A stretch of DNA of 9,616 bases from positions 1 through 9,616 of the forward strand of contig CAYWGS010000056.1 in assembly GCA_964457525.1 (NCBI GenBank). The letters are read 5' to 3'. This DNA is from an uncultured Erysipelotrichaceae bacterium (lineage in GTDB: Bacteria > Bacillota_I > Bacilli_A > Erysipelotrichales > Erysipelotrichaceae). Shown here piece after piece: positions 1,153 to 9,616 of this stretch. Positions within the stretch are counted from its first letter, which is position 1, and each line of letters begins with the position of its first letter. The position numbers and the translations under genes were made by a program. The notes under the pieces are model-generated. The model made no database searches and was not told where the DNA came from. It saw nothing but the letters and a program-made list of their open reading frames with translations.

Positions 1153-1164
1153 GGTTATACCAAA

Positions 1165-1320
1165 GAAGTTTAAGGTCACGAAAGTGTGAATAGGGAAGTA
1201 GGTGAAATGCCTACACGGTCCTCGCCGCCGTATAAGGGAGTTCTATTTCATATGCCACTGGTTTAACGGGAAGGCGAAGTAGAATATTGATCTTGAGTCG
1301 GAAGACCTGCCTTAAATGAA
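1165..1320 (+). promoter_or_regulatory. Cobalamin (B12) riboswitch aptamer
   Basis: The conserved cobalamin-riboswitch blocks appear in the correct order: GGGAAG (1193-1198), GGTGAAATGCC (1201-1211), GCCACTG (1254-1260), GGGAAGGC (1268-1275), and the B12-box AGTCGGAAGACCTGCC (1296-1311). The closing P1 helix is TTTAAGG (1169-1175) / CCTTAAA (1310-1316). Confidence 0.85.
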
Positions 1321-1398
1321 TGTGTGTTGGAGGCTTACGAAGGATAAGCATCGGCTTTTTATTATGCACATTTTGTCCTTTGGAAAGAAAGGGACACT

Positions 1399-3645
1399 AT
1401 GATTAGAACAGTGATTAAACGGGATGGAAGAAAAGTAGGGTATGATCGTCAACGGATTGTTTCAGCGATTATAAAAGCTGAAAGACAACTAGAGGGAAGC
1501 GTATCCATTGCGGAGAAGGTAGCCAAAGAGGTGGAGTTGAAGTTAAATCAATATAAGCAAGACGCTGTTTCGATAGAAGAGATTCAAGATCTTGTATTGA
1601 TTTGTTTAAAAGAGAATCATGCCATTGAGTGTGCATCTGTGTATGAGAAGTATCGTAAAGAGCGTACTCAACAGAGAGAAGTGCGTGGTGCTTTGATGAA
1701 GTCACTTGAGAAAATGACGTTCTCAGAATCGAGTGATGAGAAGAAAGAGAATGCCAATATAGATGGGAATACATCCATGGGGATGATGTTGCAATATGGT
1801 TCAACGGTATCAAAGAATTTTACGAAACATTTCCTATTAAAGGAAGAACACAGTGATTTACATGATGCAGGTTGGATCCATATTCATGATTTAGATTTCT
1901 ATGCGATGGGGACATTGACGTGTTGTCAGATCGATTTAACACAGTTATTCGAGAATGGATTCTCTACAGGTCATGGTTCACTAAGGGAGCCTAATGATAT
2001 TAGTTCTTATACAGCACTTGCGGCAATCGCAATTCAATCCAATCAGAATGATCAACACGGTGGACAGAGTATTCCTGCTTTTGATGTGGATATGGCAGAA
2101 GGTGTACGTAAGACATTTAGGAAATTATTGGCGTATGAGATCGATATTTTATTAGAAGATCATCCGGATATTTCTTATGATCATATAAAGGATTTGAGTA
2201 TTGAATCGGTGGATTTAACTAATATCGATCCATCAGATAGGATTGGACGCTTATTAAATCGTGTCTATAAACAAACCATTAAGAAAACATATCAAGCGAT
2301 GGAAGCGCTAATTCATAATTTGAATACCATGCATTCAAGAGCGGGTGCACAAGTTCCATTTTCAAGTTTGAACTTTGGTACAGATACATCGGTTGCGGGA
2401 AGAGTTGTGACGGAACAACTTCTTTTAGCGCATGAATCTGGGTTGGGAAATCATGAGACTCCAATCTTTCCTATTTTAATTTTTAAGGTTAAAGAAGGTA
2501 TTAATTTTAATCCTACCGATCCAAACTATGATTTGTTCAGACTCGCATTGCGTGTTAGTGCCAAACGACTATTCCCTAATTTTAGTTTCTTAGATGTGCC
2601 GTTTAATGCGAAGTATTACAAACAAGGACACGTTGAAACTGAAGTCACCTATATGGGCTGTAGGACACGTGTGATAGGCAATCAATGTGGTGAGAGTCAA
2701 GTATCGGGTAGAGGGAATTTATCGTTTACAAGTATCAATCTTGTGCGTTTAGGGATTGAATATGGTCTTCTTTTTAATCAAGAAGCGGATTGGAAGGGTT
2801 TCTATAAAGCATTAGATGGATTGTTAAATCAAGTTTTGGATCAACTTTTAACTCGTTTAGCGTATCAAGCGAATAAGAAGGTTAAGAATTTTCCGTTCTT
2901 GATGGGTCAGGGTATTTGGCAGGGCTCTAATCAACTATCGTACAATGACTCCGTAGAGTCTGTTCTTAATCAAGGGACTTTGAGTATTGGTTTTATTGGT
3001 TTAGCAGAATGTTTAAAGGCAATGACGGGTTCTCATCATGGAGAGAGTAAAACATCTCAACAGATTGGATTAACATTAATCAATTATATGAATCTCTTTT
3101 GTGAGAAAGAATCTAAACAAAGGAATCTAAATATTACGTTACTTGCGACACCTGCAGAAGGTTTATCGGGTCGTTTTACCCGTTTAGATCGTGAAAAATA
3201 TGGGGTTATTGAAGGGGTCACGGATCGAGAGTATTATACGAATTCATTCCATGTACCTGTGTATTATACCTGTTCGATGGATCATAAATTGATGGTCGAA
3301 GGGCCTTATCATGCCATTACACCAGCGGGTCATATTAGTTATGTTGAGATGGATGGGGATCCAAGTCGTAACATCGATGCGATGGAGGATATTGTACGTT
3401 TGATGCGTAAAGCGAATATTGGTTATGGTTCAATCAATCATCCTTTAGATTATGATCCAGTGTGTGGATATCGTGGTGTGATTAAGGGTTCTGTTTGTCC
3501 TAAATGTCATAGAGATGAGCATGAAGGGCAGTCTTTTCAACGTATTCGTAGAATAACAGGTTATTTGGTGGGGACGTTAGAACGGTTCAATCAGGCTAAA
3601 TTATCGGAGGTTCATGAGCGTGTCCAACATGATTCGATTAGCTAG
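1399..3645 (+). CDS. nrdD: Anaerobic ribonucleoside-triphosphate reductase, class III (NrdD)
   Basis: 748 aa. It has an N-terminal ATP-cone (MIRTVIKRDGRKVGYDRQRIVSAI), a catalytic-region motif YMGCRTRV, a C-terminal Zn site (CGY...CPKCH) and the glycyl-radical motif RRITGYLVG. SD AGAAAGGG lies 5 nt upstream of the ATG. An nrdG partner follows. Confidence 0.95.
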   Translation: MIRTVIKRDGRKVGYDRQRIVSAIIKAERQLEGSVSIAEKVAKEVELKLNQYKQDAVSIEEIQDLVLICLKENHAIECASVYEKYRKERTQQREVRGALMKSLEKMTFSESSDEKKENANIDGNTSMGMMLQYGSTVSKNFTKHFLLKEEHSDLHDAGWIHIHDLDFYAMGTLTCCQIDLTQLFENGFSTGHGSLREPNDISSYTALAAIAIQSNQNDQHGGQSIPAFDVDMAEGVRKTFRKLLAYEIDILLEDHPDISYDHIKDLSIESVDLTNIDPSDRIGRLLNRVYKQTIKKTYQAMEALIHNLNTMHSRAGAQVPFSSLNFGTDTSVAGRVVTEQLLLAHESGLGNHETPIFPILIFKVKEGINFNPTDPNYDLFRLALRVSAKRLFPNFSFLDVPFNAKYYKQGHVETEVTYMGCRTRVIGNQCGESQVSGRGNLSFTSINLVRLGIEYGLLFNQEADWKGFYKALDGLLNQVLDQLLTRLAYQANKKVKNFPFLMGQGIWQGSNQLSYNDSVESVLNQGTLSIGFIGLAECLKAMTGSHHGESKTSQQIGLTLINYMNLFCEKESKQRNLNITLLATPAEGLSGRFTRLDREKYGVIEGVTDREYYTNSFHVPVYYTCSMDHKLMVEGPYHAITPAGHISYVEMDGDPSRNIDAMEDIVRLMRKANIGYGSINHPLDYDPVCGYRGVIKGSVCPKCHRDEHEGQSFQRIRRITGYLVGTLERFNQAKLSEVHERVQHDSIS

Positions 3646-4129
3646 ACTCAGTTCATATAGTTCAGTGGATGGACCTGGATTAAGAACTGTGGTTTGGTTT
3701 CAAGGTTGTCCTCATCATTGTGTGGGGTGTCATAATCCAATGACCCAAAGTTTGGATCAAGGTTATTGTGTTTCTGTGGATGATTTGATGGTTCAGATTG
3801 AATCTCTAAACAATAAGAAAATCACCCTTTCTGGGGGTGATCCATTCTTACAGCCTTTAGCATTACTTGATTTGGTTGAACGATTAAAAGGGTTAGATTA
3901 TGATATTTGGTGTTATACCGGATATACGTTTGAGGATTGTTTAAATCATCCAATACTTACAGCGTGTTTAAGACATATGGATATGTTGGTTGATGGTAAG
4001 TTTGAACAATCTATGATGGATCATTCTCTTATGTTTAGGGGTTCAAAGAATCAAAGGATTATTGATTTGAAGTACTATTTTGATACATTAATGGTTAATA
4101 AACAAGATGAATGGACATATATTGAATAA
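3614..4129 (+). CDS. nrdG: Anaerobic ribonucleotide reductase activating protein (radical SAM, NrdG)
   Basis: It carries SVDGPGLRTVVWFQGCPHHCVGCHNP, which contains the CxxxCxxC radical-SAM cluster motif typical of NrdG. It overlaps the nrdD 3' end. The start is ambiguous: ATG 3614, in-frame GTG 3620 (best spacing to GGAGG at 3606-3610) or ATG 3629. Confidence 0.9.
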   Translation: MSVSNMIRLARLSSYSSVDGPGLRTVVWFQGCPHHCVGCHNPMTQSLDQGYCVSVDDLMVQIESLNNKKITLSGGDPFLQPLALLDLVERLKGLDYDIWCYTGYTFEDCLNHPILTACLRHMDMLVDGKFEQSMMDHSLMFRGSKNQRIIDLKYYFDTLMVNKQDEWTYIE

Positions 4130-4149
4130 AAAGGCATTAAGCCTTTTTT
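4128..4149. terminator. Bidirectional rho-independent terminator (T-left) serving nrdG (+) and the ATPase gene (-)
   Basis: AAAAAGGC (4128-4135), loop ATTAA, GCCTTTTTT (4141-4149). The A-run and T-run flank the stem, so it can act on both strands. It is 19/21 identical to the hairpin at 5657-5677. Confidence 0.75.
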
Positions 4150-4182
4150 ACAAGAATATGTTCTTGTATATTGCGTTCTTGT
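4150..4182. repeat. 33-bp direct repeat, left copy (R-left): imperfect 18-bp palindrome plus a third half-site
   Basis: ACAAGAATATGTTCTTGTATATTGCGTTCTTGT is 30/33 identical, in the same orientation, to 5619-5651. It ends 3 nt beyond the ATPase stop codon. Confidence 0.85.
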
Positions 4183-4185
4183 TTG

Positions 4186-5565
4186 TTATGGGAGGAAGGA
4201 TATTAGTTGTATGTTTTTTTCAGCTTTAGCAAGATTAATCACAGCATCCGTAAATCCAATCTTACTAAAGAAGATATAATAGGATTCTTTAGGATTAAGA
4301 ACCATACTTTTTTGGATTAACCCATTGACGATTTGCATATCGAGTGGTTCTTTTGTCCACTTAACTTCCGCAAAAACGGTTATTGAATTGCTTATACCGA
4401 TTAAATCTATTTCTTCTTCACGTTTTAATTTAGGATTGTTTCCCCACCATCGTCCTCGTTTAGTAATAAGAGTGGGTAGTTTACCTTCTTGGTTCAATTT
4501 GTCAAAATGGTCTAGGAATATTTTTTCAAATCCTTCTCCCATAAAGGAAGAGATATTATTCTCAATGAATTCTTGATATACTTTGTCGCCTAATCCTAGT
4601 TCGATTGCGCTCATATTTGGGAACACAAATTGATACCAAAATCTAAATGAACCATCTGAAATTCGATAAATCGATTTTCGAGTGTTATCTTCATTAATAG
4701 GATTTTCTTTTATGAGGATTCCTAATTCAATTAGGTTGTCTAAGTATCGATTTAGAGCCCCAGTTTGCATGTTAATTTTAGTCGCAATCGTATTGTTTTT
4801 TGATGATCCATTCGCAATTGCGTTTAGAATCATATTATAGACTTTTGGTTCACGTAATTCTTGTTTTAGGAAGTTTAGTGGTTCTTCATAGAGTCTTCCA
4901 GTATCTGTTAAGAAAAGTGAGACGATATTCGATTTTAAACTTTTATTTTTGTTTATATACGTAAGATATTCGGCAATTCCACCAGTCGCATAGTGGAGAA
5001 TGGCAATATCTTCCTTTTGCATTGGGCTTAGATATTTTTCAGTCTCAAAGTATGTAAAAGGTTTTAGTTTGATTTGTGATGTTCGGCGGCCATACAGTGG
5101 ACTTTTTATACCTAAAACTTGAGTTTCCATAAAACTCATAGAAGATCCACAAAGAACTAAATGTAATTTTGTATCTTTCCATTCATGGTCACAGAATTTT
5201 TGAATGATGGATGATATTTCTGGCATCGATTGTGCTAGATAAGGATATTCATCGATAATAAAAATTATTCTTTCATTTCTTGATAATTCGGTTAAGTAAT
5301 GAAACATTTGATTGAAATCACTAAAAGAGGGAAGATAAGAAGATTGTTTGGTATGTTCATAGATTGACTTGGATAATAAATCAAGGTTTGTTGAATAGCC
5401 TGCTTCGATTGCCATGTAGTAGATTGCGTTTTTGTCTTGAATAAATTGTTTAAGTAATTGAGTTTTACCAATACGTCTTTTTCCATACAAAACTGTAAAT
5501 TCAAATTGATTTGATTGATATTGTCTTGTTAGATTTTCGAGTTCTTTTTCTCTTCCTATGAACAT
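4186..5565 (-). CDS. ATP-binding protein of the archaeal-ATPase (PF01637-like) family with a central winged-helix and a C-terminal DUF234 (PD-(D/E)xK-like) domain
   Basis: 459 aa. It has the N-terminal FIGREKELENL signature, Walker A GKRRIGKT (res 28-35) and Walker B IIFIIDE (res 100-106). The wHTH-like segment YNMILNAIANG...GALNRYLDNLIELGILIKE (about res 243-287) is followed by FRFWYQFV. The C-terminus has E347 ... EIDLIG (D387) ... FAEVKW (E400, K402), consistent with a restriction-endonuclease fold. SD AGGAGA lies 7 nt upstream of the ATG. Confidence 0.85.
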   Translation of the reverse strand: MFIGREKELENLTRQYQSNQFEFTVLYGKRRIGKTQLLKQFIQDKNAIYYMAIEAGYSTNLDLLSKSIYEHTKQSSYLPSFSDFNQMFHYLTELSRNERIIFIIDEYPYLAQSMPEISSIIQKFCDHEWKDTKLHLVLCGSSMSFMETQVLGIKSPLYGRRTSQIKLKPFTYFETEKYLSPMQKEDIAILHYATGGIAEYLTYINKNKSLKSNIVSLFLTDTGRLYEEPLNFLKQELREPKVYNMILNAIANGSSKNNTIATKINMQTGALNRYLDNLIELGILIKENPINEDNTRKSIYRISDGSFRFWYQFVFPNMSAIELGLGDKVYQEFIENNISSFMGEGFEKIFLDHFDKLNQEGKLPTLITKRGRWWGNNPKLKREEEIDLIGISNSITVFAEVKWTKEPLDMQIVNGLIQKSMVLNPKESYYIFFSKIGFTDAVINLAKAEKNIQLISFLP

Positions 5566-5587
5566 ATTTATGTCTCCTATTTTCTAT

Positions 5588-5622
5588 ATTTTAAAAATAA
5601 CACATTAATCATTAATATACAA
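5588..5622 (-). promoter_or_regulatory. Putative promoter of the ATPase gene, with -35 overlapping the R-right palindrome
   Basis: The minus strand reads TTGTAT (plus 5617-5622), a 17-nt spacer, then TGtTATTTT (-10 at plus 5594-5599, TG at 5601-5602). An alternative -10, TAAAAT, lies at plus 5588-5593. The spacer contains ATTAATCATTAAT. Confidence 0.4.
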
Positions 5623-5651
5623 GAACATGTTCTTGTATATCGTGTTCTTGT
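5619..5651. repeat. 33-bp direct repeat, right copy (R-right): perfect 18-bp palindrome plus a third half-site
   Basis: The repeat is ACAAGAACATGTTCTTGTATATCGTGTTCTTGT. Positions 5619-5636 form a perfect palindrome. Half-sites are ACAAGAA (5619-5625), TTCTTGT (5630-5636) and TTCTTGT (5645-5651). It is 30/33 identical to 4150-4182. Confidence 0.85.
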
Positions 5652-5656
5652 AAATT

Positions 5657-5677
5657 AAAAAGGCGCTAAGCCTTTTT
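5657..5677 (-). terminator. Rho-independent terminator (T-right) of the DUF805-rmuC-DUF898 operon
   Basis: AAAAAGGC (5657-5664), loop GCTAA, GCCTTTTT (5670-5677). It lies 4 nt downstream of the DUF898-like stop codon on the minus strand. It is 19/21 identical to 4128-4148. Confidence 0.75.
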
Positions 5678-5681
5678 GTGT

Positions 5682-5984
5682 TTATGCAAAGTGTGTATGT
5701 TTTGTTTTCCATTTCTGTAGGTCAATTCCGACCCAGAAACTATAGATTCCAAAGGTAATAATAATCAGTAACAACCATTTGATCCATGTACCAAACAAGC
5801 CCATGGCAGTTCCTTCAAAGCGAAGTCGTTTTCCATCGATAATGGTGTGACTGGTCATCCATTTCTGATATAAGACAATGGCCCAAGGATAACAGATACC
5901 AAAGGTTAGAACGGTGATTAGAAACCTAAGGATTTGGATACCAATCAGGCCTAATAAACCTCCATCAAACTTCGAATTATTCAT
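5682..5984 (-). CDS. Small membrane protein, DUF898 (YjgN)-like
   Basis: 100 aa with about three hydrophobic helices. The pattern TFGICYPWA ... RLRFEGT ... TFGIYSFW resembles the repeated TLGIYxPW / F-x-G motifs of the DUF898 family. Its ATG overlaps the rmuC stop (ATGAATAA, 5977-5984). Family assignment is by eye only. Confidence 0.65.
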   Translation of the reverse strand: MNNSKFDGGLLGLIGIQILRFLITVLTFGICYPWAIVLYQKWMTSHTIIDGKRLRFEGTAMGLFGTWIKWLLLIIITFGIYSFWVGIDLQKWKTKHTHFA

Positions 5985-7263
5985 CGTTCGTGTCCTCTTC
6001 TAGTAATATTTCTGGTTTAACTTCAAGGGTTGATACATTCTTGAGTTTGGATTGAATCATACGGGTACGAACACCAACAAGTTTATCCAATTCTTCACTG
6101 GTCTTTGTTAGTTTATCTTGTGCACTTTGTAGTACATTACCAAATTTCTCGAACTCTGCTTTAACCGATGATAAGGTACTCCATACTTCTCCACTTCGTT
6201 TTTGAATCGCAAGTGTCTTAAAGCCCATTTGTAGGCTGTTTAAGAGGGCTGCCATCGTAGTAGGTCCTGCAATGTTAATTTGGTAATCACGTTGTAGGAC
6301 TTCAACTAAACCGCGTTGTACGACTTCTGCGTATAAACCTTCGGTTGGTAAGAATAGGATAGCGAATTCTGTGGTATATGGGATACGTACATATTTTTCT
6401 TTGATGTCTTTTGCGAATGTTTTAATCTTCGTTTCGAGTGATTTCCAGGATTGATCAATGAGTGCTTTATCCCCAATCTCACTCGCATTCATCAGTCTTA
6501 CATAATCTTCAGTCGGAAATTTGGAGTCTATTGGAAGATAGACGGGTCCACTTTCATCACCGGGTAATTTGACCGCAAATTCAACTGGGTTCTTAGTGCC
6601 TGGAATGGTCACATAGTTTTCAACGTATTGTTCTGGGGAGAGGATTTGTTCAAGGATGGATCCGAGTTGAATTTCACCTAACATACCACGTGTTTTAACA
6701 TTGGATAGAATCTTCGTTAAATCCCCAACTTCTACCCCAATCTTACGCATTTCACCTAATCCTTTATATACTGCTTCAAGTTGTTCAGAAACTTGTTTGA
6801 AGGATTGTGAGATACGATCTTCTAAGGTCTTTTGTAGTTTCTCATCTACGGTCATACGCATTTCATCTAACTTCTTACTGTTTTCTTCTTGAAGTGAGGA
6901 TAATCGTTTTTCTACCGTCTCACGAATCTGGTTTAACTTCTGTTCATTGGATAAACCGGTATTCGTCAATGTCGTATTCATTTGACTGAGTGTTGTATAG
7001 ACGGTGTTTTGCAAAGCTTCTTGGTTGAGCTTAAGGAGTGTGGTTAAGTCGGATAAGCGTTTATCTAAGACTTGATTAGTTTCCTTGTTGGTATTGCTTA
7101 ATACCGTACTAAAGGTTGTGAGGGATCGTTGATTGTCATCTTTGAGATCATTCTCCATGTCTCTTAAATCACTCTTAAGCGCATCGTTATTTGGTTTCTT
7201 GAGTAATAAAACAATGAGTAATACAATAATTATTCCAATGCCTATAAGTATGTAAATTTCCAT
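5977..7263 (-). CDS. rmuC: DNA recombination protein RmuC (N-terminal TM anchor, long coiled coil, C-terminal RmuC nuclease-fold domain)
   Basis: RmuC-family motifs are present: VEFAVKLPGDESGPVYLPIDSKFPTEDY and FAILFLPTEGLYAEV. The N-terminus is hydrophobic (MEIYILIGIGIIIVLLIVLLL). The track ORF starts at 7293. The ATG at 7263 is preferred because it is preceded by SD AAGGGGG and avoids overlap with the upstream gene. Confidence 0.9.
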   Translation of the reverse strand: MEIYILIGIGIIIVLLIVLLLKKPNNDALKSDLRDMENDLKDDNQRSLTTFSTVLSNTNKETNQVLDKRLSDLTTLLKLNQEALQNTVYTTLSQMNTTLTNTGLSNEQKLNQIRETVEKRLSSLQEENSKKLDEMRMTVDEKLQKTLEDRISQSFKQVSEQLEAVYKGLGEMRKIGVEVGDLTKILSNVKTRGMLGEIQLGSILEQILSPEQYVENYVTIPGTKNPVEFAVKLPGDESGPVYLPIDSKFPTEDYVRLMNASEIGDKALIDQSWKSLETKIKTFAKDIKEKYVRIPYTTEFAILFLPTEGLYAEVVQRGLVEVLQRDYQINIAGPTTMAALLNSLQMGFKTLAIQKRSGEVWSTLSSVKAEFEKFGNVLQSAQDKLTKTSEELDKLVGVRTRMIQSKLKNVSTLEVKPEILLEEDTNDE

Positions 7264-7273
7264 AATACCCCCT

Positions 7274-7768
7274 TTATGATTGATATGGACCATATCGATT
7301 ATCGTATGGTGTTCCTGGTAGTGCGAGTAAGATAATAACAGCTATGTTTCCAATCCATGGAATAAAGTTAAAGAGCAAGAAGTATCCGGATCGATCTTGA
7401 TCATGAAGTCTTCTGACTGACATGGCTAGGATTGGGATAAGCATGAAGGTTGAATAGATAAAACTGCTAAAGATCAGTACGCATACGAGTAAGTAAGACA
7501 AGACACTTTCGATTAATACAGTTAGGAGTGATAATCCAATAAATAATCCAACAAACACGATAATTGAATTCGCTAACATGAACATCCAGAAGTCTCTTCT
7601 GGAACAACGTCCATTGAAATTAGCGTATTGTTTGAGTGCATTAATATAGTATTGAAATAAGCGAGTACTCGCATTCGACTTTGTTATTTCAAGTGGTTTT
7701 CCACAGTGCTCGCAGTTTAATTCCTTTGAGGTGGTTTCGAGTCCACAGTACGTACAGATTCTTGCCAT
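7274..7768 (-). CDS. DUF805-family membrane protein with N-terminal zinc ribbon
   Basis: The zinc ribbon is CTYCG...CEHCG. DUF805 hallmarks are [35 protein letters not shown] and [10 protein letters not shown], with several TM helices. The track start is GTG 7780. ATG 7768 is preferred because GGAGG (7774-7778) lies 5 nt upstream. Confidence 0.8.
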
Positions 7769-7791
7769 AAGATCCTCCACATTTAGTATAT

Positions 7792-7820
7792 ACTATAGGG
7801 TAAAAACATGTCATAATCAA
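7792..7820 (-). promoter_or_regulatory. Putative sigma-A promoter of the DUF805-rmuC-DUF898 operon
   Basis: The minus strand reads TTGATT (plus 7815-7820), a 17-nt spacer, then TATAGT (plus 7792-7797). It lies about 15 nt upstream of the SD. Confidence 0.5.
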
Positions 7821-7847
7821 AGACATTTTTATTTTGGGTGGTATAAT
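7820..7847 (+). promoter_or_regulatory. Putative sigma-A promoter of udp
   Basis: -35-like AAGACA (7820-7825), a 16-nt spacer, then an extended -10 TGgTATAAT (7839-7847). It is back to back with the minus-strand promoter. Confidence 0.5.
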
Positions 7848-7883
7848 ACTTGTACAGAACTTTTAAAGGCTAGGAGGATTAAT

Positions 7884-8654
7884 ATGGCTACAGTTTATTC
7901 AGAAAAAGAATATCATGTTCAATTAGAAAAAGGTGATGTAGGGGAATACGTCATTCTTCCAGGAGACCCAGGTCGTTGTGAGAAGATTGCTCAGTATTTT
8001 GATGAACCTGCTCATGTTATGACCAATCGTGAATATGTTACTTATACAGGTAAATTAAATGGTGTTAAAGTCAGTGTTACTTCAACCGGTATTGGAGGTC
8101 CATCTGCAGCGATTGCGTTAGAAGAACTCATTCATTGTGGCGCTCATACCTTCATTCGTGTTGGTACATCCGGTGGTATGCAACCAGAAGTATTAGGTGG
8201 GGATGTTGTGATTGCGACAGGCGCAATTCGTTTGGATGGTACAAGTAAAGAGTATGCTCCAGTTGAATTCCCAGCGGTTGCGAACTTTGATGTTGTTCAA
8301 GCATTAAGAGAAAGTGCTAAGGACTTAAATATTCCGAGTCATACGGGTGTTGTTCAATGTAAGGATAACTTCTATGGTCAACATTCTCCTGAATCGATGC
8401 CAATTGCTTCTGAGTTAAATGCTAAGTGGGAAGCTTGGATTCGTGCTGGTGCATTAACATCCGAAATGGAGTCTGCTACATTATTTGTTGTTGGTTCGAC
8501 TCGTCGTGTACGTGTTGGAGCTGTTCTATTGGTTGTGGCTAATCAAACACGTCGTGCATTAGGTTTAGAAGATATTCAAGTTCATGATACAGAGGCCGCA
8601 ATACGTGTTGCGGTTGAAGCGATTAGAAAGTTAATCGAACAAGATAAGAAGTAA
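7884..8654 (+). CDS. udp: Uridine phosphorylase (nucleoside phosphorylase family NP-I)
   Basis: 256 aa counted from the ATG at 7884, with SD AGGAGG at 7872-7877. It shows extended similarity to E. coli Udp blocks: [58 protein letters not shown] and SEMESATLF. The longer track ORF from 7731 is an upstream read-through artefact. Confidence 0.85.
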
Positions 8655-8655
8655 T

Positions 8656-8685
8656 AACCTTAACTCATATTAAGGTTTTTTATTT
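8656..8685 (+). terminator. Rho-independent terminator of udp
   Basis: Stem AACCTTAA (8656-8663) / TTAAGGTT (8670-8677) with a 6-nt loop, followed by TTTTTATTTT. Confidence 0.8.
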
Positions 8686-8713
8686 TGGGCTTTGTTGTTT
8701 ATAAAGGAGAATT

Positions 8714-9370
8714 ATGAAGCGATTATATATATTTGATATGGATGGATTACTTCTTGATACTGAGACACTCTATCAACAATTCTGGTTTAAAGTATTACAA
8801 GAGAAGAATATTGATATTACGCGAGAAGAACTTAGAAAGATTATTGGTATGAGTTATGATCAAGCTAAGAATTATTTCTTGAATTATGTTGATACGGAAG
8901 AAGAATTTATTGAACTTAGACAAAGACGAGAAGTCTACTTCTGGGAACATGTAGAAAACATAGGTATGCCGCTTAGAGAAGGGGCAGATCAAATACTGAG
9001 TTACTTGATAGAAAATAAAATCAAGACAGCACTTATCACTTCTACTGAGGAACAACGTGCTAAGAAACTAATGAATATTGCAGGGCTCAATCATACCTTT
9101 GATTACATGGTCTTTAGTAATATGGTAACTAAGACAAAACCTGATCCTGAAATGTATCATTATTTAGAGAAACTTACGGATATTGATATGAGTGAATGGA
9201 TTGTATTTGAAGACTCTTACAGTGGATTAAAGGCTGCGAACAATGCAGGGGTTGATGTGGTGTGGATCAAAGATTTAGCCATTCTCATGGATGATAATGT
9301 GAGTTATAAGCAGATGCATAGTTCATTACTCGATGTCTTAGCAAACATGGAGATGATTGAAAACATGTAA
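8714..9370 (+). CDS. HAD-superfamily hydrolase, subfamily IA (phosphatase / beta-phosphoglucomutase-like)
   Basis: HAD motif I is FDMDGLLLDTE, motif II LITSTE, motif III K..KPDPE, and motif IV FEDSYSGLKAANNAG. SD AAAGGAG lies upstream of the ATG. Substrate cannot be inferred. Confidence 0.85.
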   Translation: MKRLYIFDMDGLLLDTETLYQQFWFKVLQEKNIDITREELRKIIGMSYDQAKNYFLNYVDTEEEFIELRQRREVYFWEHVENIGMPLREGADQILSYLIENKIKTALITSTEEQRAKKLMNIAGLNHTFDYMVFSNMVTKTKPDPEMYHYLEKLTDIDMSEWIVFEDSYSGLKAANNAGVDVVWIKDLAILMDDNVSYKQMHSSLLDVLANMEMIENM

Positions 9371-9380
9371 TTATACAAAA

Positions 9381-9416
9381 ACAGACCTATCTCAGGAATG
9401 ATGGGTCTGTTTTTGT
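9381..9416 (+). terminator. Rho-independent terminator of the HAD gene
   Basis: Stem ACAGACC (9381-9387) / GGTCTGT (9404-9410), extendable by two further pairs, followed by TTTTTGTTT. Confidence 0.75.
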
Positions 9417-9616
9417 TTGGGGAAGTAAAATTGAGGGGATACTTCCTATTTATATATCGTATATTTATGGAGAAACTTAAGGAATGTTGATATAAAGTCA
9501 ATATTGCATAGATAGTGAGTAAATAAGAGAATGCAAGAAAAGTGGACATTTTATTAAATAGAGTCGTTCTCTATCGAAATAGCATACAATGTTCAGAACC
9601 ATAATATTAAGTAATG

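What the first reader, a model, noticed from the sequence alone, without database searches (positions are those of the whole stretch)
4128..5677. Single-gene cassette bracketed by 33-bp direct repeats and twin terminator hairpins, wedged between convergent nrdDG and rmuC operons
Seen directly:
- 4150-4182 (ACAAGAATATGTTCTTGTATATTGCGTTCTTGT) and 5619-5651 (ACAAGAACATGTTCTTGTATATCGTGTTCTTGT) are same-orientation repeats, 30/33 identical.
- One lies 3 nt past the stop codon of the single gene between them. The other lies 53 nt upstream of its start codon.
- Just outside each repeat sits a near-identical terminator hairpin: 4128-4148 AAAAAGGCATTAAGCCTTTTT and 5657-5677 AAAAAGGCGCTAAGCCTTTTT, 19/21 identical.
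- The layout is therefore T-R-[gene]-R-T, at the spot where the convergent nrdG and rmuC-operon ends would otherwise share one bidirectional terminator.
- Hand counts of a few 60-nt lines give roughly 28-33% GC inside the gene and roughly 40-50% in nrdD and rmuC lines. This is a rough sample. The HAD gene is also about 30-35% GC, so composition alone is not decisive.

Inference: the segment may have arrived as a discrete cassette in one of two ways.
- Recombination at R, with R as an att-like core duplicated on integration.
- Insertion at the terminator hairpin, with T duplicated and R as the cassette's own terminal repeats.

No recombinase is encoded inside. Mobility would therefore need a trans-acting enzyme, or the repeats are regulatory rather than mobile.
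Basis: partly seen in the sequence, partly recalled or inferred. Interest (0 to 1): 0.75.

Follow-up and report, generated by a model that had tools for sequence, protein, structure and literature searches.

The report
Repeat-flanked ATPase-nuclease gene cassette at terminator
A single candidate anti-phage gene sits exactly where a sister species has only one shared terminator hairpin; it is flanked by a duplicated terminator and by two copies of what looks like its own operator, so it is a real insertion/deletion cassette and it supplies a testable DNA target for a widespread, uncharacterised protein family.

Summary
R1 4150-4182 and R2 5619-5651 match 30/33. T1 4128-4148 and T2 5657-5677 match 19/21. 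Neither match is expected by chance.

The bracketed gene (4186-5565, minus strand) encodes an Orc1/Cdc6-like AAA+ ATPase, a winged helix and a DUF234 PD-(D/E)xK nuclease. It matches the PADLOC candidate defence family PDC-S27.

In a related species (RmuC 91% identical; contigs L247 and L248), DUF898 and nrdG are 24 nt apart, separated by one T hairpin, with no R and no ATPase gene.

R is therefore not the target site. It travels with the ATPase gene:
- It lies upstream of homologues down to 61% identity, in unrelated contexts.
- Its 18-bp palindrome ends 46-53 nt before the ATG and overlaps a -35-like hexamer.
- It is accompanied by extra half-sites in 15-nt register.

I read R as the gene's operator/iteron module, probably bound by the protein itself. 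This is inferred, not shown. A 3' copy of R is also kept in three other lineages, and one species shows an R-mediated tandem duplication.

T is the host terminator, duplicated at the cassette borders.

Gain versus loss is unresolved. No recombinase is encoded, and all 24 conspecific contigs that span the site are occupied. Direct repeats flanking these genes are enriched across the family but are not universal.

The parts
3614..4129 (+). nrdG (anaerobic RNR activase). This is the left conserved flank. Its stop codon (4127-4129) overlaps the A-run of T1.
   Evidence: Pfam Fer4_12 at 2.5e-37 and NCBIfam TIGR02491 NrdG at 6.9e-40. The gene directly abuts the single T in the empty-site contigs L247/L248.
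4128..4148 (.). T1: terminator hairpin AAAAAGGC-ATTAA-GCCTTTTT. This is the nrdG-side copy of the duplicated host terminator. It would terminate nrdG on the + strand and the ATPase gene on the - strand.
   Evidence: Direct repeat of T2, 19/21 in the window and 21/21 in several strains. It folds as an 8-bp hairpin followed by a U-run on both strands. The equivalent hairpin is the only element in the empty site.
4150..4182 (-). R1: 3' copy of the R module. In ATPase sense it reads half-site ACAAGAAC (4182-4175), 7-nt spacer, then an 18-bp palindrome (4167-4150) with one mismatch.
   Evidence: 30/33 identical to R2. Nearly invariant in 18 conspecific haplotypes. A 3' copy is also present in L173/L174, L175 and L240, and has decayed in L149/L053.
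4186..5565 (-). 459-aa ATPase-nuclease gene. The domain order is an Orc1/Cdc6-like AAA+ (residues 1 to about 235), a winged helix (about 240-302), a helical linker, and a DUF234 PD-(D/E)xK domain (about 369-456).
   Evidence: Pfam ATPase_2 at 1.7e-24, DUF234 at 2.2e-22 and HTH_45. PADLOC PDC-S27 at 6.5e-62. AF2 model with pLDDT 93.7. Foldseek top hits are 2qen, 2fna and Orc1/Cdc6. Walker A, Walker B, D387, E400 and K402 are invariant in 35 homologues.
5566..5622 (-). Putative promoter and 5' leader of the ATPase gene. The -35-like hexamer TTGTAT (5622-5617) takes its first 4 nt from the end of the palindrome. A 17-nt spacer follows, then TGt-TATTTT (about 5602-5594) and the RBS AGGAG (5578-5574).
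   Evidence: The same geometry, TTGTNN-17-(TGn)TAnnnT, is seen in 5 of 6 R-type lineages. The distance from palindrome end to ATG is 46-53 nt in all six. The best case is L236, with TTGTTA-17-TATAAT. The generic promoter scan did not call this site in the window, so the assignment is an inference.
5619..5651 (-). R2: promoter-proximal R module. It contains a perfect 18-bp palindrome (5619-5636, extending to 26 bp at 5615-5640), a 7-nt spacer and a half-site (5644-5651).
   Evidence: The palindrome is 18/18 conserved upstream of ATPase homologues at 61-84% identity, in different genomes and contexts. Within the species only 1 of 18 haplotypes differs, by a single base.
5657..5677 (.). T2: terminator hairpin AAAAAGGC-GCTAA-GCCTTTTT. 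This is the DUF898-side copy. It would terminate the rmuC-DUF898 operon ahead of the ATPase promoter.
   Evidence: It is the only site the terminator scan called. Fold shown. The same position is occupied in L149, L035 and L175.
5682..5984 (-). DUF898-family small ORF (100 aa), the last gene of the DUF805-rmuC-DUF898 operon. This is the right conserved flank.
   Evidence: Pfam DUF898 at 8e-15. Conserved at 100 aa in window, L149, L175, L245 and L247.

Best explanation
The 1.5-kb segment is a single-gene accessory cassette lodged in the terminator shared by nrdG and the rmuC-DUF898 operon.

Shown:
- A related species has only one T hairpin at this spot, so the occupied allele equals the empty allele plus 'R-promoter-ATPase-R-T'.
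- T is duplicated in direct orientation at the two borders.
- R belongs to the gene, not to the site. It is absent from the empty site and it accompanies ATPase homologues in other genomes.

Inferred:
- R is the gene's operator/iteron module: a palindrome overlapping the -35, plus half-sites at 15-nt spacing.
- It is most probably bound by the encoded Orc1/Cdc6-like AAA+/winged-helix protein, which would repress its own promoter.
- The 3' R copy is a second binding site. It could serve looping or act as a roadblock next to T1.

Whatever its regulatory role, the 3' copy gives the gene flanking homology. R x R exchange produced a tandem duplication in one species (shown in L175). It could also excise a gene+R circle. 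T x T exchange would leave exactly the observed empty site.

The nested order T-R...R-T is what one expects in either of two cases:
- An R-gene-R unit was inserted with a 21-nt duplication of the hairpin target.
- A circle opened by a staggered cut across R was joined to a target opened by a staggered cut across T, and the gaps were filled in.

Today the cassette looks fixed and vertically inherited in this species.
For: Empty site:
- In L247 and L248, DUF898 stop, ACT, AAAAAGGCTCACGCCTTTTTTTT and the nrdG stop follow one another. There is no R or half-site anywhere in the 20 kb of L247.

Occupied in four related species:
- window, L149/L053/L035, L173/L174 and L175.
- T-type hairpins occur only at the borders of this region in about 130 kb of related loci.
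- The outgroup L245 has a different operon at the site and neither T nor R.

R travels with the gene:
- R lies upstream of homologues at 61% identity in a Clostridiaceae MAG, amid GC-rich flanks (L041/L236).
- R also lies in an acetyltransferase/nadA context (L240).
- 26 of 28 genome-wide and 117 of 120 metagenome palindrome hits lack an ATPase homologue nearby. Genome-collection hits are scattered across phyla at about chance density.

Operator geometry:
- The palindrome end lies 46-53 nt from the ATG in six lineages.
- The palindrome ends in a -35-like TTGTNN hexamer, 17 nt from a -10, in 5 of 6 lineages.
- L236 carries five half-sites at 15-nt period.
- R is 33/33 identical between window R2 and L175, while the adjacent spacers are unalignable.
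- R is nearly invariant within the species, whereas the T loops and spacer vary.

Protein:
- AAA+ plus winged helix, with Foldseek matches to DNA-bound Orc1/Cdc6 (2qby, 2.6e-9).

Recombination and copy similarity:
- L175 keeps 5' and 3' fragments of a second ATPase copy, each next to an R. This shows an R-A-R-A-R tandem duplication.
- The two R copies within one genome share lineage-specific variants: GCAAGAAC...GTTCTTGC in L240, and 52/52 identity in L175.
Against: - No binding or expression data exist.
- The winged-helix recognition region differs little between homologues with R and homologues with other upstream motifs. A conserved host factor therefore cannot be excluded.
- The generic promoter scan does not call the window's promoter.
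- R1 has decayed in one sister species and is absent in L236. A 3' copy is therefore dispensable.
- Polarity is unresolved. NrdD and RmuC identities place the empty-site species among the occupied ones. A secondary T x T deletion and independent gains are equally parsimonious.
- ATPase divergence (74-84%) matches that of NrdD (77-83%), which indicates old, vertical residence.
- All 24 conspecific contigs that span the site are occupied.
- No recombinase or transposase is encoded within 27 kb.
- Most distant homologues have no flanking repeats: 0 of 10 on plasmids.
Confidence: 0.55

Rival explanations
1. The arrangement is purely regulatory and structural, with no cassette history. R2 is the operator and R1 an auxiliary operator of a resident gene. 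T1 and T2 are ordinary terminators that look alike through shared constraint or gene conversion. The T-only allele in one species is just a deletion.
For: - The ATPase gene is as diverged between species as NrdD.
- It is fixed in all conspecific contigs.
- R overlaps the promoter.
- A compensatory GGC/GCC to GGT/ACC change in the L175 nrdG-side hairpin suggests T is selected as a hairpin.
- No mobility gene is present.
Against: - T1 and T2 are identical including their loops in some strains. T-type hairpins occur nowhere else in about 130 kb of related sequence.
- The deletion boundary falls exactly on T.
- The outgroup has neither T nor R.
- R-flanked units occur in unrelated loci with sharp repeat boundaries.
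- Flanking repeats made of local target sequence occur in other family members: L204, 48 nt including a terminator; L179, 25 nt including the neighbour's RBS and start codon.
Confidence: 0.25
2. The gene is a self-mobilising, recombinase-free element. The encoded protein binds the R ends through its winged helix and assembles as an AAA+ oligomer. It then uses its PD-(D/E)xK nuclease to cut at R and at hairpin or cruciform targets such as T. This would generate the long duplications of both T and R.
For: - Nuclease and ATPase motifs are invariant.
- A profile of the family weakly matches TnsC, the AAA+ regulator of Tn7-like transposition (5.5e-6).
- The nested T-R...R-T order is what joining two staggered cuts would give (my reasoning).
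- Flanking direct repeats scoring >=17 occur in 8 of 36 family members against 0 of 260 control ORFs.
- Some of these repeats are derived from the target.
- Both T and R are palindromic.
Against: - No near-identical copies are seen at different sites. The closest homologues outside the species are 83% identical and lie at the same locus.
- There is no strand-transfer enzyme.
- Most homologues lack repeats.
- The TnsC match is generic to the initiator clade of AAA+ proteins.
- The protein is classed as a candidate defence gene, not a transposase (PMC12988326).
Confidence: 0.12
3. R is a recombination site for a trans-acting site-specific recombinase (integron-like attC, or Xer/dif-like), and cassettes enter and leave at R.
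For: - R is an imperfect-palindrome direct repeat bracketing one gene, or two genes in L240.
- Three R copies occur in L175.
Against: - The empty site has no R.
- R carries the gene's own promoter-proximal operator.
- No attC R''/L''/L'/R' organisation or GTTRRRY core, and no 11-6-11 dif architecture, can be read in R (sequence inspection against consensus recalled from memory).
- No integrase lies within 27 kb.
- The third R in L175 belongs to a disrupted second ATPase copy, not to the hyd genes.
Confidence: 0.03

Closest known systems
PADLOC phage-defence candidate PDC-S27 (ATPase_2 + DUF234 proteins, COG1672)
   Same: The protein matches the PDC-S27 model over nearly its full length (6.5e-62). 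It has the defining architecture of an ATPase fused to a PD-(D/E)xK domain (PMC12988326, PMC3424549). It sits in a variable spot between conserved genes, as defence genes often do.
   Different: PDC-S27 is an unvalidated candidate with no known DNA target or regulation. In the papers I could search, nothing describes a cognate palindrome/iteron module or flanking direct repeats for it.
Operator-plus-iteron control of plasmid Rep initiators (RepA of pPS10, RepE of F) and ORB elements of archaeal Orc1/Cdc6 (from general knowledge)
   Same: A winged-helix DNA-binding protein whose gene is preceded by an inverted repeat overlapping its own -35. Directly repeated half-sites share the sequence of one arm. 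The protein fold matches DNA-bound Orc1/Cdc6.
   Different: There is no sign of an origin of replication. The protein carries a C-terminal nuclease. A copy of the site also lies at the 3' end of the gene. Binding is untested.
Integron gene cassettes (gene + attC)
   Same: A single-gene unit bracketed by imperfect palindromic direct repeats, with presence/absence between relatives.
   Different: The gene has its own promoter. The repeat is absent from the empty site. There is no attC architecture and no integrase nearby.
Insertions that duplicate their target, and elements that target terminator or REP hairpins (IS and Tn7-like elements; integrative elements with att repeats)
   Same: The host terminator T is present once in the empty allele and twice, in direct orientation, around the insert. 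In the sister species an IS3-family element has also landed in the loop of the same hairpin.
   Different: A 21-nt duplication of a whole hairpin is much longer than typical IS duplications. There are no inverted terminal repeats and no transposase or integrase. A second, element-derived direct repeat (R) is nested inside the first.
Repeat-mediated tandem amplification and deletion of genes
   Same: L175 shows R-A-R-A-R. The two repeat copies within a genome evolve in concert.
   Different: The repeats here are only 21-52 nt, and they coincide with a functional-looking binding module rather than with IS or rRNA copies.

Membership tests
PDC-S27 (PADLOC candidate defence system) | Full-length match to the PDC-S27 profile HMM | tested here: met
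   PDLC04984 at E 6.5e-62, covering residues 2-410 of the protein against positions 4-419 of the 474-position model.
PDC-S27 (PADLOC candidate defence system) | Protects against phage | not testable with these tools
ATPase_2/DUF234 proteins (COG1672) | N-terminal ATPase_2 domain with Walker A/B plus C-terminal DUF234 | tested here: met
   Pfam PF01637 at 1.7e-24 and PF03008 at 2.2e-22. G28-T35 and D105-E106 are invariant.
PD-(D/E)xK nuclease superfamily | Catalytic D...(D/E)xK motif on an alpha/beta core | tested here: met
   D387, E400 and K402 are invariant in 35 homologues. The AF2 model shows a beta-rich alpha/beta domain at 369-456. DUF234 is classified in this superfamily (PMC3424549). 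A fold search on the isolated domain was not possible because its model had pLDDT 52.8. Activity is untested.
Orc1/Cdc6-like AAA+ with winged helix | AAA+ module followed by a winged helix, structurally similar to initiators | tested here: met
   Foldseek hits: 2qen 2.5e-13, 2fna 2.1e-11, 2qby (DNA-bound Cdc6/Orc1) 2.6e-9. This shows fold similarity only, not initiator function.
Autoregulatory operator/iteron module | Inverted repeat overlapping the gene's own promoter, with repeated half-sites | tested here: met
   Geometry is conserved in six lineages. L236 has five half-sites at 15-nt period.
Autoregulatory operator/iteron module | Bound by the encoded protein; represses transcription | not testable with these tools
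   The only indirect test, co-variation of the winged helix with the motif type, was inconclusive.
Insertion/deletion cassette (genomic islet) | Occupied and empty alleles between the same conserved flanks, with defined junctions | tested here: met
   L247/L248 are empty; window, L149, L173 and L175 are occupied.
Integron gene cassette | attC site (R''-L''...L'-R', GTTRRRY core) and a promoterless ORF | tested here: not met
   R has none of these features by inspection, using consensus recalled from memory. The gene has its own promoter-like region.
Integron gene cassette | Integron integrase and attI nearby | tested here: not met
   No integrase appears among the genes of the 27-kb contigs L001/L011.
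Xer/dif (pdif-type) module | 28-nt site with 11-nt arms around a 6-nt spacer, usually in alternating orientation | tested here: not met
   R is 8-2-8 (12-2-12 in R2) plus a direct half-site. The copies are in direct orientation.
IS/transposon | Encoded transposase or recombinase and terminal inverted repeats | tested here: not met
   The only Pfam hits are ATPase_2, AAA, HTH and DUF234. The ends are direct repeats, not inverted ones.
IS/transposon | Target-site duplication | tested here: inconclusive
   T is single in the empty allele and double in the occupied one. The same pattern would follow from a T x T deletion in an occupied ancestor.
Intrinsic (bidirectional) terminator | GC-containing hairpin flanked by an A-run and a T-run | tested here: met
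   8-bp stems with U-runs form on both strands. The scan calls T2 only. A compensatory stem change is seen in L175. Termination itself is untested.

The most novel reading that the evidence does not exclude
ATPase_2-wHTH-DUF234 (PDC-S27) genes are single-gene, recombinase-free mobile units. Under this reading the protein recognises its own R ends, and its ATP-driven PD-(D/E)xK nuclease opens palindromic targets such as terminator hairpins. That would produce unusually long duplications of both the target (T) and the element end (R). The 'defence candidate' label would then partly reflect selfish spread into variable regions.
Probability: 0.12. Interest if true: 0.9.

Novelty: new variant of a known kind. 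Interest (0 to 1): 0.62.

Why it matters
PDC-S27 proteins are among the most common candidate defence genes in archaea and bacteria (PMC12988326), yet they have no known target, regulation or mechanism. This locus contributes three things:
- A specific, strongly conserved DNA site (R) that the protein can be tested against.
- A clean occupied/empty allele pair with base-level junctions.
- A family-wide, statistically supported tendency to be flanked by direct repeats, some of them made of target sequence.

Together these turn 'what do these ATPase-nucleases recognise, and how do they get into genomes?' into bench-testable questions. The locus also shows how a shared bidirectional terminator can be duplicated so that an inserted gene is insulated on both sides.

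Tried and rejected
- **R as a generic dispersed repeat.** The exact palindrome gave 28 hits in 185,579 species genomes, scattered across phyla at about chance density. It gave more than 120 metagenome hits and 4 viral hits. Only 5 of these hits, all from the genome and metagenome scans (L035, L041, L053, L144, L149), lie next to an ATPase homologue, and each sits upstream of the gene.
- **R as an NrdR or LexA box.** The spacing and consensus, recalled from memory, do not fit. R also follows the ATPase gene, not nrd.
- **Integron attC or dif-like site.** Rejected; see the membership table.
- **Three R copies in L175 bracketing a hydrogenase-maturation cassette.** Rejected. The outer R is followed by a 5' fragment, and the middle R is preceded by a 3' fragment, of a second ATPase copy.
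- **Base composition as evidence of foreign origin.** Not decisive.
- **The 20/23 similarity between nrdG's 3' end (4085-4107) and the ATPase promoter spacer (5602-5624).** The nrdG end is homologous coding sequence in every species, including the empty-site one. I treat the match as chance in AT-rich sequence.
- **Co-variation between winged-helix residues and motif type.** Too few cases; inconclusive.
- **Universality of flanking repeats.** Not supported. Most viral-contig homologues and 0 of 10 plasmid homologues have none.
- **Technical dead ends:**
  - The exact ATPase protein is not in the contig index.
  - The single-protein scan of viral contigs found no relatives.
  - The single-sequence AF2 model of the nuclease domain was too poor for a fold search.
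  - Literature searches for DUF234, COG1672 and PF01637 found no functional study.


Full report
**1.

The two R copies (4150-4182 and 5619-5651) match 30/33, or 31/34 as scored by the repeat finder. The two T hairpins (4128-4148 and 5657-5677) match 19/21. With up to three mismatches, each motif occurs only at its two sites in the 9.6-kb window. None of 200 dinucleotide-preserving shuffles gave a match.

- It contains an 18-bp palindrome, ACAAGAAC-AT-GTTCTTGT. This is perfect in R2, where it extends to 26 bp (5615-5640).
- A third GTTCTTGT half-site lies 7 nt further on, so successive half-sites start 15 nt apart.

T folds as an 8-bp hairpin flanked by an A-run and a T-run on both strands.

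**2. The gene**

The ORF 4186-5565 (minus strand, 459 aa) is co-directional with DUF805-rmuC-DUF898 and convergent with nrdD-nrdG. Evidence on the protein:
- Pfam finds ATPase_2, a winged helix and DUF234.
- PADLOC assigns it to the phage-defence candidate PDC-S27 (E 6.5e-62).
- An AlphaFold model built on 35 homologues is confident (pLDDT 93.7). It shows an AAA+ module, a winged helix, two long helices and a C-terminal alpha/beta domain.
- The best structural matches are two archaeal ATPases of unknown function (2qen, 2fna), then Orc1/Cdc6 and ORC subunits, including DNA-bound Cdc6/Orc1.
- Walker A, Walker B and a D387...E400-x-K402 motif are invariant.
- DUF234 is classified in the PD-(D/E)xK superfamily (PMC3424549).
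- PDC-S27 is common but not experimentally characterised (PMC12988326).

**3. Same species**

The exact NrdG and RmuC proteins occur on 20 metagenome contigs, mostly from sewage and digester samples. A further same-species contig, L144 (ATPase 98.7% identical), came from the metagenome scan for the palindrome. Every contig that reaches the site carries the ATPase gene with both R and both T.

Across 18 haplotypes, R1 and R2 are almost invariant. Polymorphism is concentrated in the T loops, the promoter spacer and the -10 region. In several strains T1 and T2 are identical, loops included.

**4. Related species**

Scanning public collections for the palindrome, and looking up homologues, recovered five more species of the same clade and one outgroup.

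| Loci | Similarity to window | Arrangement at the site |
|---|---|---|
| L149/L053/L035 | ATPase 76-78% | DUF898-T-R-ATPase-T-nrdG. The 3' R is reduced to a remnant, (T)CAAGAACATATTTATGCAC. In L053 an IS3-family element sits in the loop of the nrdG-side T. |
| L173/L174 | ATPase 83% | R on both sides of the gene and T on the nrdG side. The rmuC side is rearranged. |
| L175 | ATPase 77% | DUF898-T-R, then a 5' ATPase fragment, then a hydE/G/F cluster, then a 3' ATPase fragment, then R-ATPase-R. Further genes follow before nrdG. This is a former R-A-R-A-R tandem duplication in which one copy was later disrupted. |
| L247/L248 | RmuC 91% | DUF898 and nrdG separated by 24 nt: TAA-ACT-AAAAAGGCTCACGCCTTTTTTTT-AA. 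One T, no R, no ATPase. Seen in two independent samples. |
| L245 (outgroup) | RmuC 78% | A flavodoxin/aldo-keto-reductase operon at the same place, with unrelated terminators and no T or R. |

T-type hairpins occur only at the borders of this region in about 130 kb of related sequence. The occupied and empty alleles therefore differ by exactly one T plus R-promoter-ATPase-R. In the window this is 1,529 nt.

Polarity is unresolved. NrdD, NrdG and RmuC identities place the empty-site species among the occupied ones. ATPase divergence (74-84%) is similar to that of NrdD (77-83%). One gain plus one T x T loss is as parsimonious as two gains.

**5. What R is**

R is not a target sequence, because it is absent from the empty site. 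It follows the gene.
- The same palindrome lies upstream of homologues only 61% identical in a Clostridiaceae MAG with GC-rich flanks (L041/L236).
- It also lies upstream of a homologue in an acetyltransferase/nadA context (L240).
- Elsewhere in 185,579 species genomes, the exact palindrome occurs only at about chance density and away from ATPase genes.

In six lineages the palindrome ends 46-53 nt before the ATG. In five of the six, its last four bases start a TTGTNN hexamer 17 nt upstream of a -10 element, usually with a TG extension. The clearest case is L236, with TTGTTA-17-TATAAT. L236 has five half-sites at 15-nt spacing ahead of the palindrome.

R2 of the window and the R copies of L175 are 33/33 identical, although the adjoining spacers cannot be aligned.

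Homologues without R carry other palindrome-plus-repeat motifs at the same position (L239, L176, the L198 group, L179, L218/L222).

I therefore read R as the gene's operator/iteron module. I infer that the encoded winged-helix AAA+ protein binds it. That step is not shown. The one indirect test, co-variation between the recognition helix and the motif type, was inconclusive.

**6. Why a copy at the 3' end**

A 3' R is present in the window, L173, L175 and L240. In L240 it lies after a second gene, so R brackets two genes. It is decayed in L149/L053 and absent in L236.

Within each genome the two copies share lineage-specific variants and have sharp boundaries that coincide with the module itself. 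This points to either selection on both copies or repeated homogenisation by R x R exchange. L175 proves that such exchange happens.

Across the family, flanking direct repeats are enriched. I scored the best ungapped direct repeat between the 300 nt upstream and the 300 nt downstream of each gene.

| Set | n | Score >=14 | Score >=17 |
|---|---|---|---|
| Unrelated ORFs from the same loci | 260 | 2 | 0 |
| Deduplicated ATPase homologues | 36 | 10 | 8 |

Some of these repeats are element-derived (R; L176, 31 nt; L218, 41-nt hairpin). Others are target-derived:
- L204: 48 nt including the upstream gene's end and terminator.
- L179: 25 nt including the downstream gene's RBS and first codons.

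The feature is sporadic, however. Most viral-contig homologues and 0 of 10 plasmid homologues show nothing. The control ORFs are also mostly embedded in operons, so the contrast is somewhat flattering.

**7. What T is**

T is the host's bidirectional terminator, duplicated.
- In the occupied allele, T2 ends the rmuC operon ahead of the ATPase promoter. T1 ends both the ATPase gene and nrdG.
- A compensatory GGC/GCC to GGT/ACC change in L175 suggests T is maintained as a hairpin.
- T1 and T2 are direct repeats including their loops. Within a species they tend to carry the same loop: GTTAA in the window species, and the equivalent of GTAAT in L053. This suggests concerted evolution, though the evidence is thin.

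**8. Mechanism**

The best-supported account (confidence 0.55) is an old single-gene cassette that carries its own operator at both ends and sits in a duplicated terminator.

Shown:
- The indel and its junctions.
- The linkage of R to the gene.
- The R-mediated tandem duplication.

Inferred:
- Autoregulation through R.
- T x T recombination as the route to the empty allele.
- An original insertion that duplicated T.

The nested order T-R...R-T follows naturally from either of two routes. An R-gene-R unit could have entered with a 21-nt target duplication. Alternatively, a circle opened by a staggered cut across R could have been ligated to a target opened by a cut of opposite polarity across T, with gap filling. 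In the second route the fill-in duplicates both sequences in exactly this order.

Rivals:
- **Purely regulatory and structural reading with a chance deletion (0.25).** This is weakened by the exact T boundary, the uniqueness of T-type hairpins, and the target-derived repeats elsewhere in the family.
- **Self-mobilisation by the encoded ATPase-nuclease (0.12).** This is attractive because both T and R are palindromic and a family profile weakly matches TnsC. There are, however, no near-identical copies at new sites and no strand-transfer enzyme.
- **A trans-acting site-specific recombinase acting at R (0.03).** This is contradicted by the R-less empty site.

**9. Comparison with known systems**

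By profile and architecture the protein is a member of PDC-S27 / COG1672.

The R arrangement works like the operator-plus-iteron control of plasmid Rep initiators, or like ORB elements of Orc1/Cdc6. Membership in those systems is not claimed.

The cassette resembles an integron cassette or a pdif module only superficially, and their defining features were tested and not met.

The T duplication resembles a target-site duplication or an att repeat. It is unusually long for the former, and the integrase required by the latter is absent.

**10. Verdict**

The cassette interpretation is supported, specifically the 'T duplicated, R belongs to the cassette' version, with R also acting as a regulatory site.

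Novelty: a new variant of a known kind. It is an accessory-gene indel with nested direct repeats, in a family for which neither a DNA target nor flanking repeats have been described in the literature I could search.

Interest is moderate to high, because the locus gives an uncharacterised, very widespread protein family a concrete DNA site and a concrete mobility hypothesis to test.

Noticed in passing
window 1156-1328 (+): A cobalamin riboswitch (Rfam RF00174, 100 bits, full length) lies immediately upstream of nrdD (start 1399). The anaerobic ribonucleotide reductase operon therefore appears to be B12-regulated.
   Followed up: no
L053 2850-4345 (sister species; equivalent to window T1 at 4128-4148): An IS3-family insertion sequence sits in the loop of the nrdG-side T hairpin, with a 3-bp duplication (TTA). 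It has orfA at 2888-3364, orfB at 3409-4296, and terminal inverted repeats TAAACTRTACCCC. The same hairpin has therefore been hit by a second, unrelated element.
   Followed up: partly
L175 4029-4190 and 9600-9952: 5' and 3' fragments of a second ATPase copy flank a hydE/hydG/hydF plus lyase cluster (4370-9518). This is a tandem duplication of the cassette in which one copy was later split by about 5 kb of metabolic genes.
   Followed up: yes
L001 4264-5529 (about 5.5 kb left of nrdD; also present in L173, L149, L245, L247): A second ATPase-nuclease gene of a different family (AAA_14 + DUF4143, 421 aa) lies between a prolyl isomerase gene and a ROK kinase gene. It is conserved in all species, including the one with the empty site. 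No flanking direct repeats were noticed.
   Followed up: partly
window 4085-4107 versus 5602-5624: A 20/23 direct match links the last codons of nrdG to the ATPase promoter spacer plus the first 6 nt of R2. The nrdG end is homologous coding sequence in all species, so this is probably chance in ATTAAT-rich sequence. If real, it would extend the repeat to about 50 nt interrupted by T1.
   Followed up: partly
L236 270-351: Five ACAAGA(A/T)C half-sites at an exact 15-nt period lead into the palindrome upstream of a 61%-identical ATPase gene. This iteron-like array is much longer than the one in the window.
   Followed up: partly
L240 2915-2952 and 5380-5446: In an unrelated genus the R repeat (38 nt, 36/38) brackets two genes, the ATPase and a 297-aa TPR protein. 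The downstream copy has an extra inverted half-site and lies just upstream of nadA.
   Followed up: partly
window 5682-5984 (-): The DUF898-family ORF is only 100 aa, against a 336-position Pfam model, yet it is conserved at that length in five species. It overlaps the end of rmuC by 8 nt. It is likely a distinct short membrane protein rather than a gene fragment.
   Followed up: no
L218 1372-1411 and 2916-2955; L222 1262-1301: A different 40-nt hairpin element, GTGAGCTATAAGTCC-A8-TCGAGTTATAGCTCAC, flanks a distant ATPase homologue on both sides. It recurs upstream of another homologue on a separate contig, giving a second clade with its own gene-associated repeat.
   Followed up: partly
window versus L149/L053/L035: RmuC is 93-97% identical between the window species and its sister, while NrdD is 82-84%, NrdG 73% and the ATPase 76-78%. 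Divergence is uneven on the two sides of the cassette, which hints at recombination in this region.
   Followed up: no
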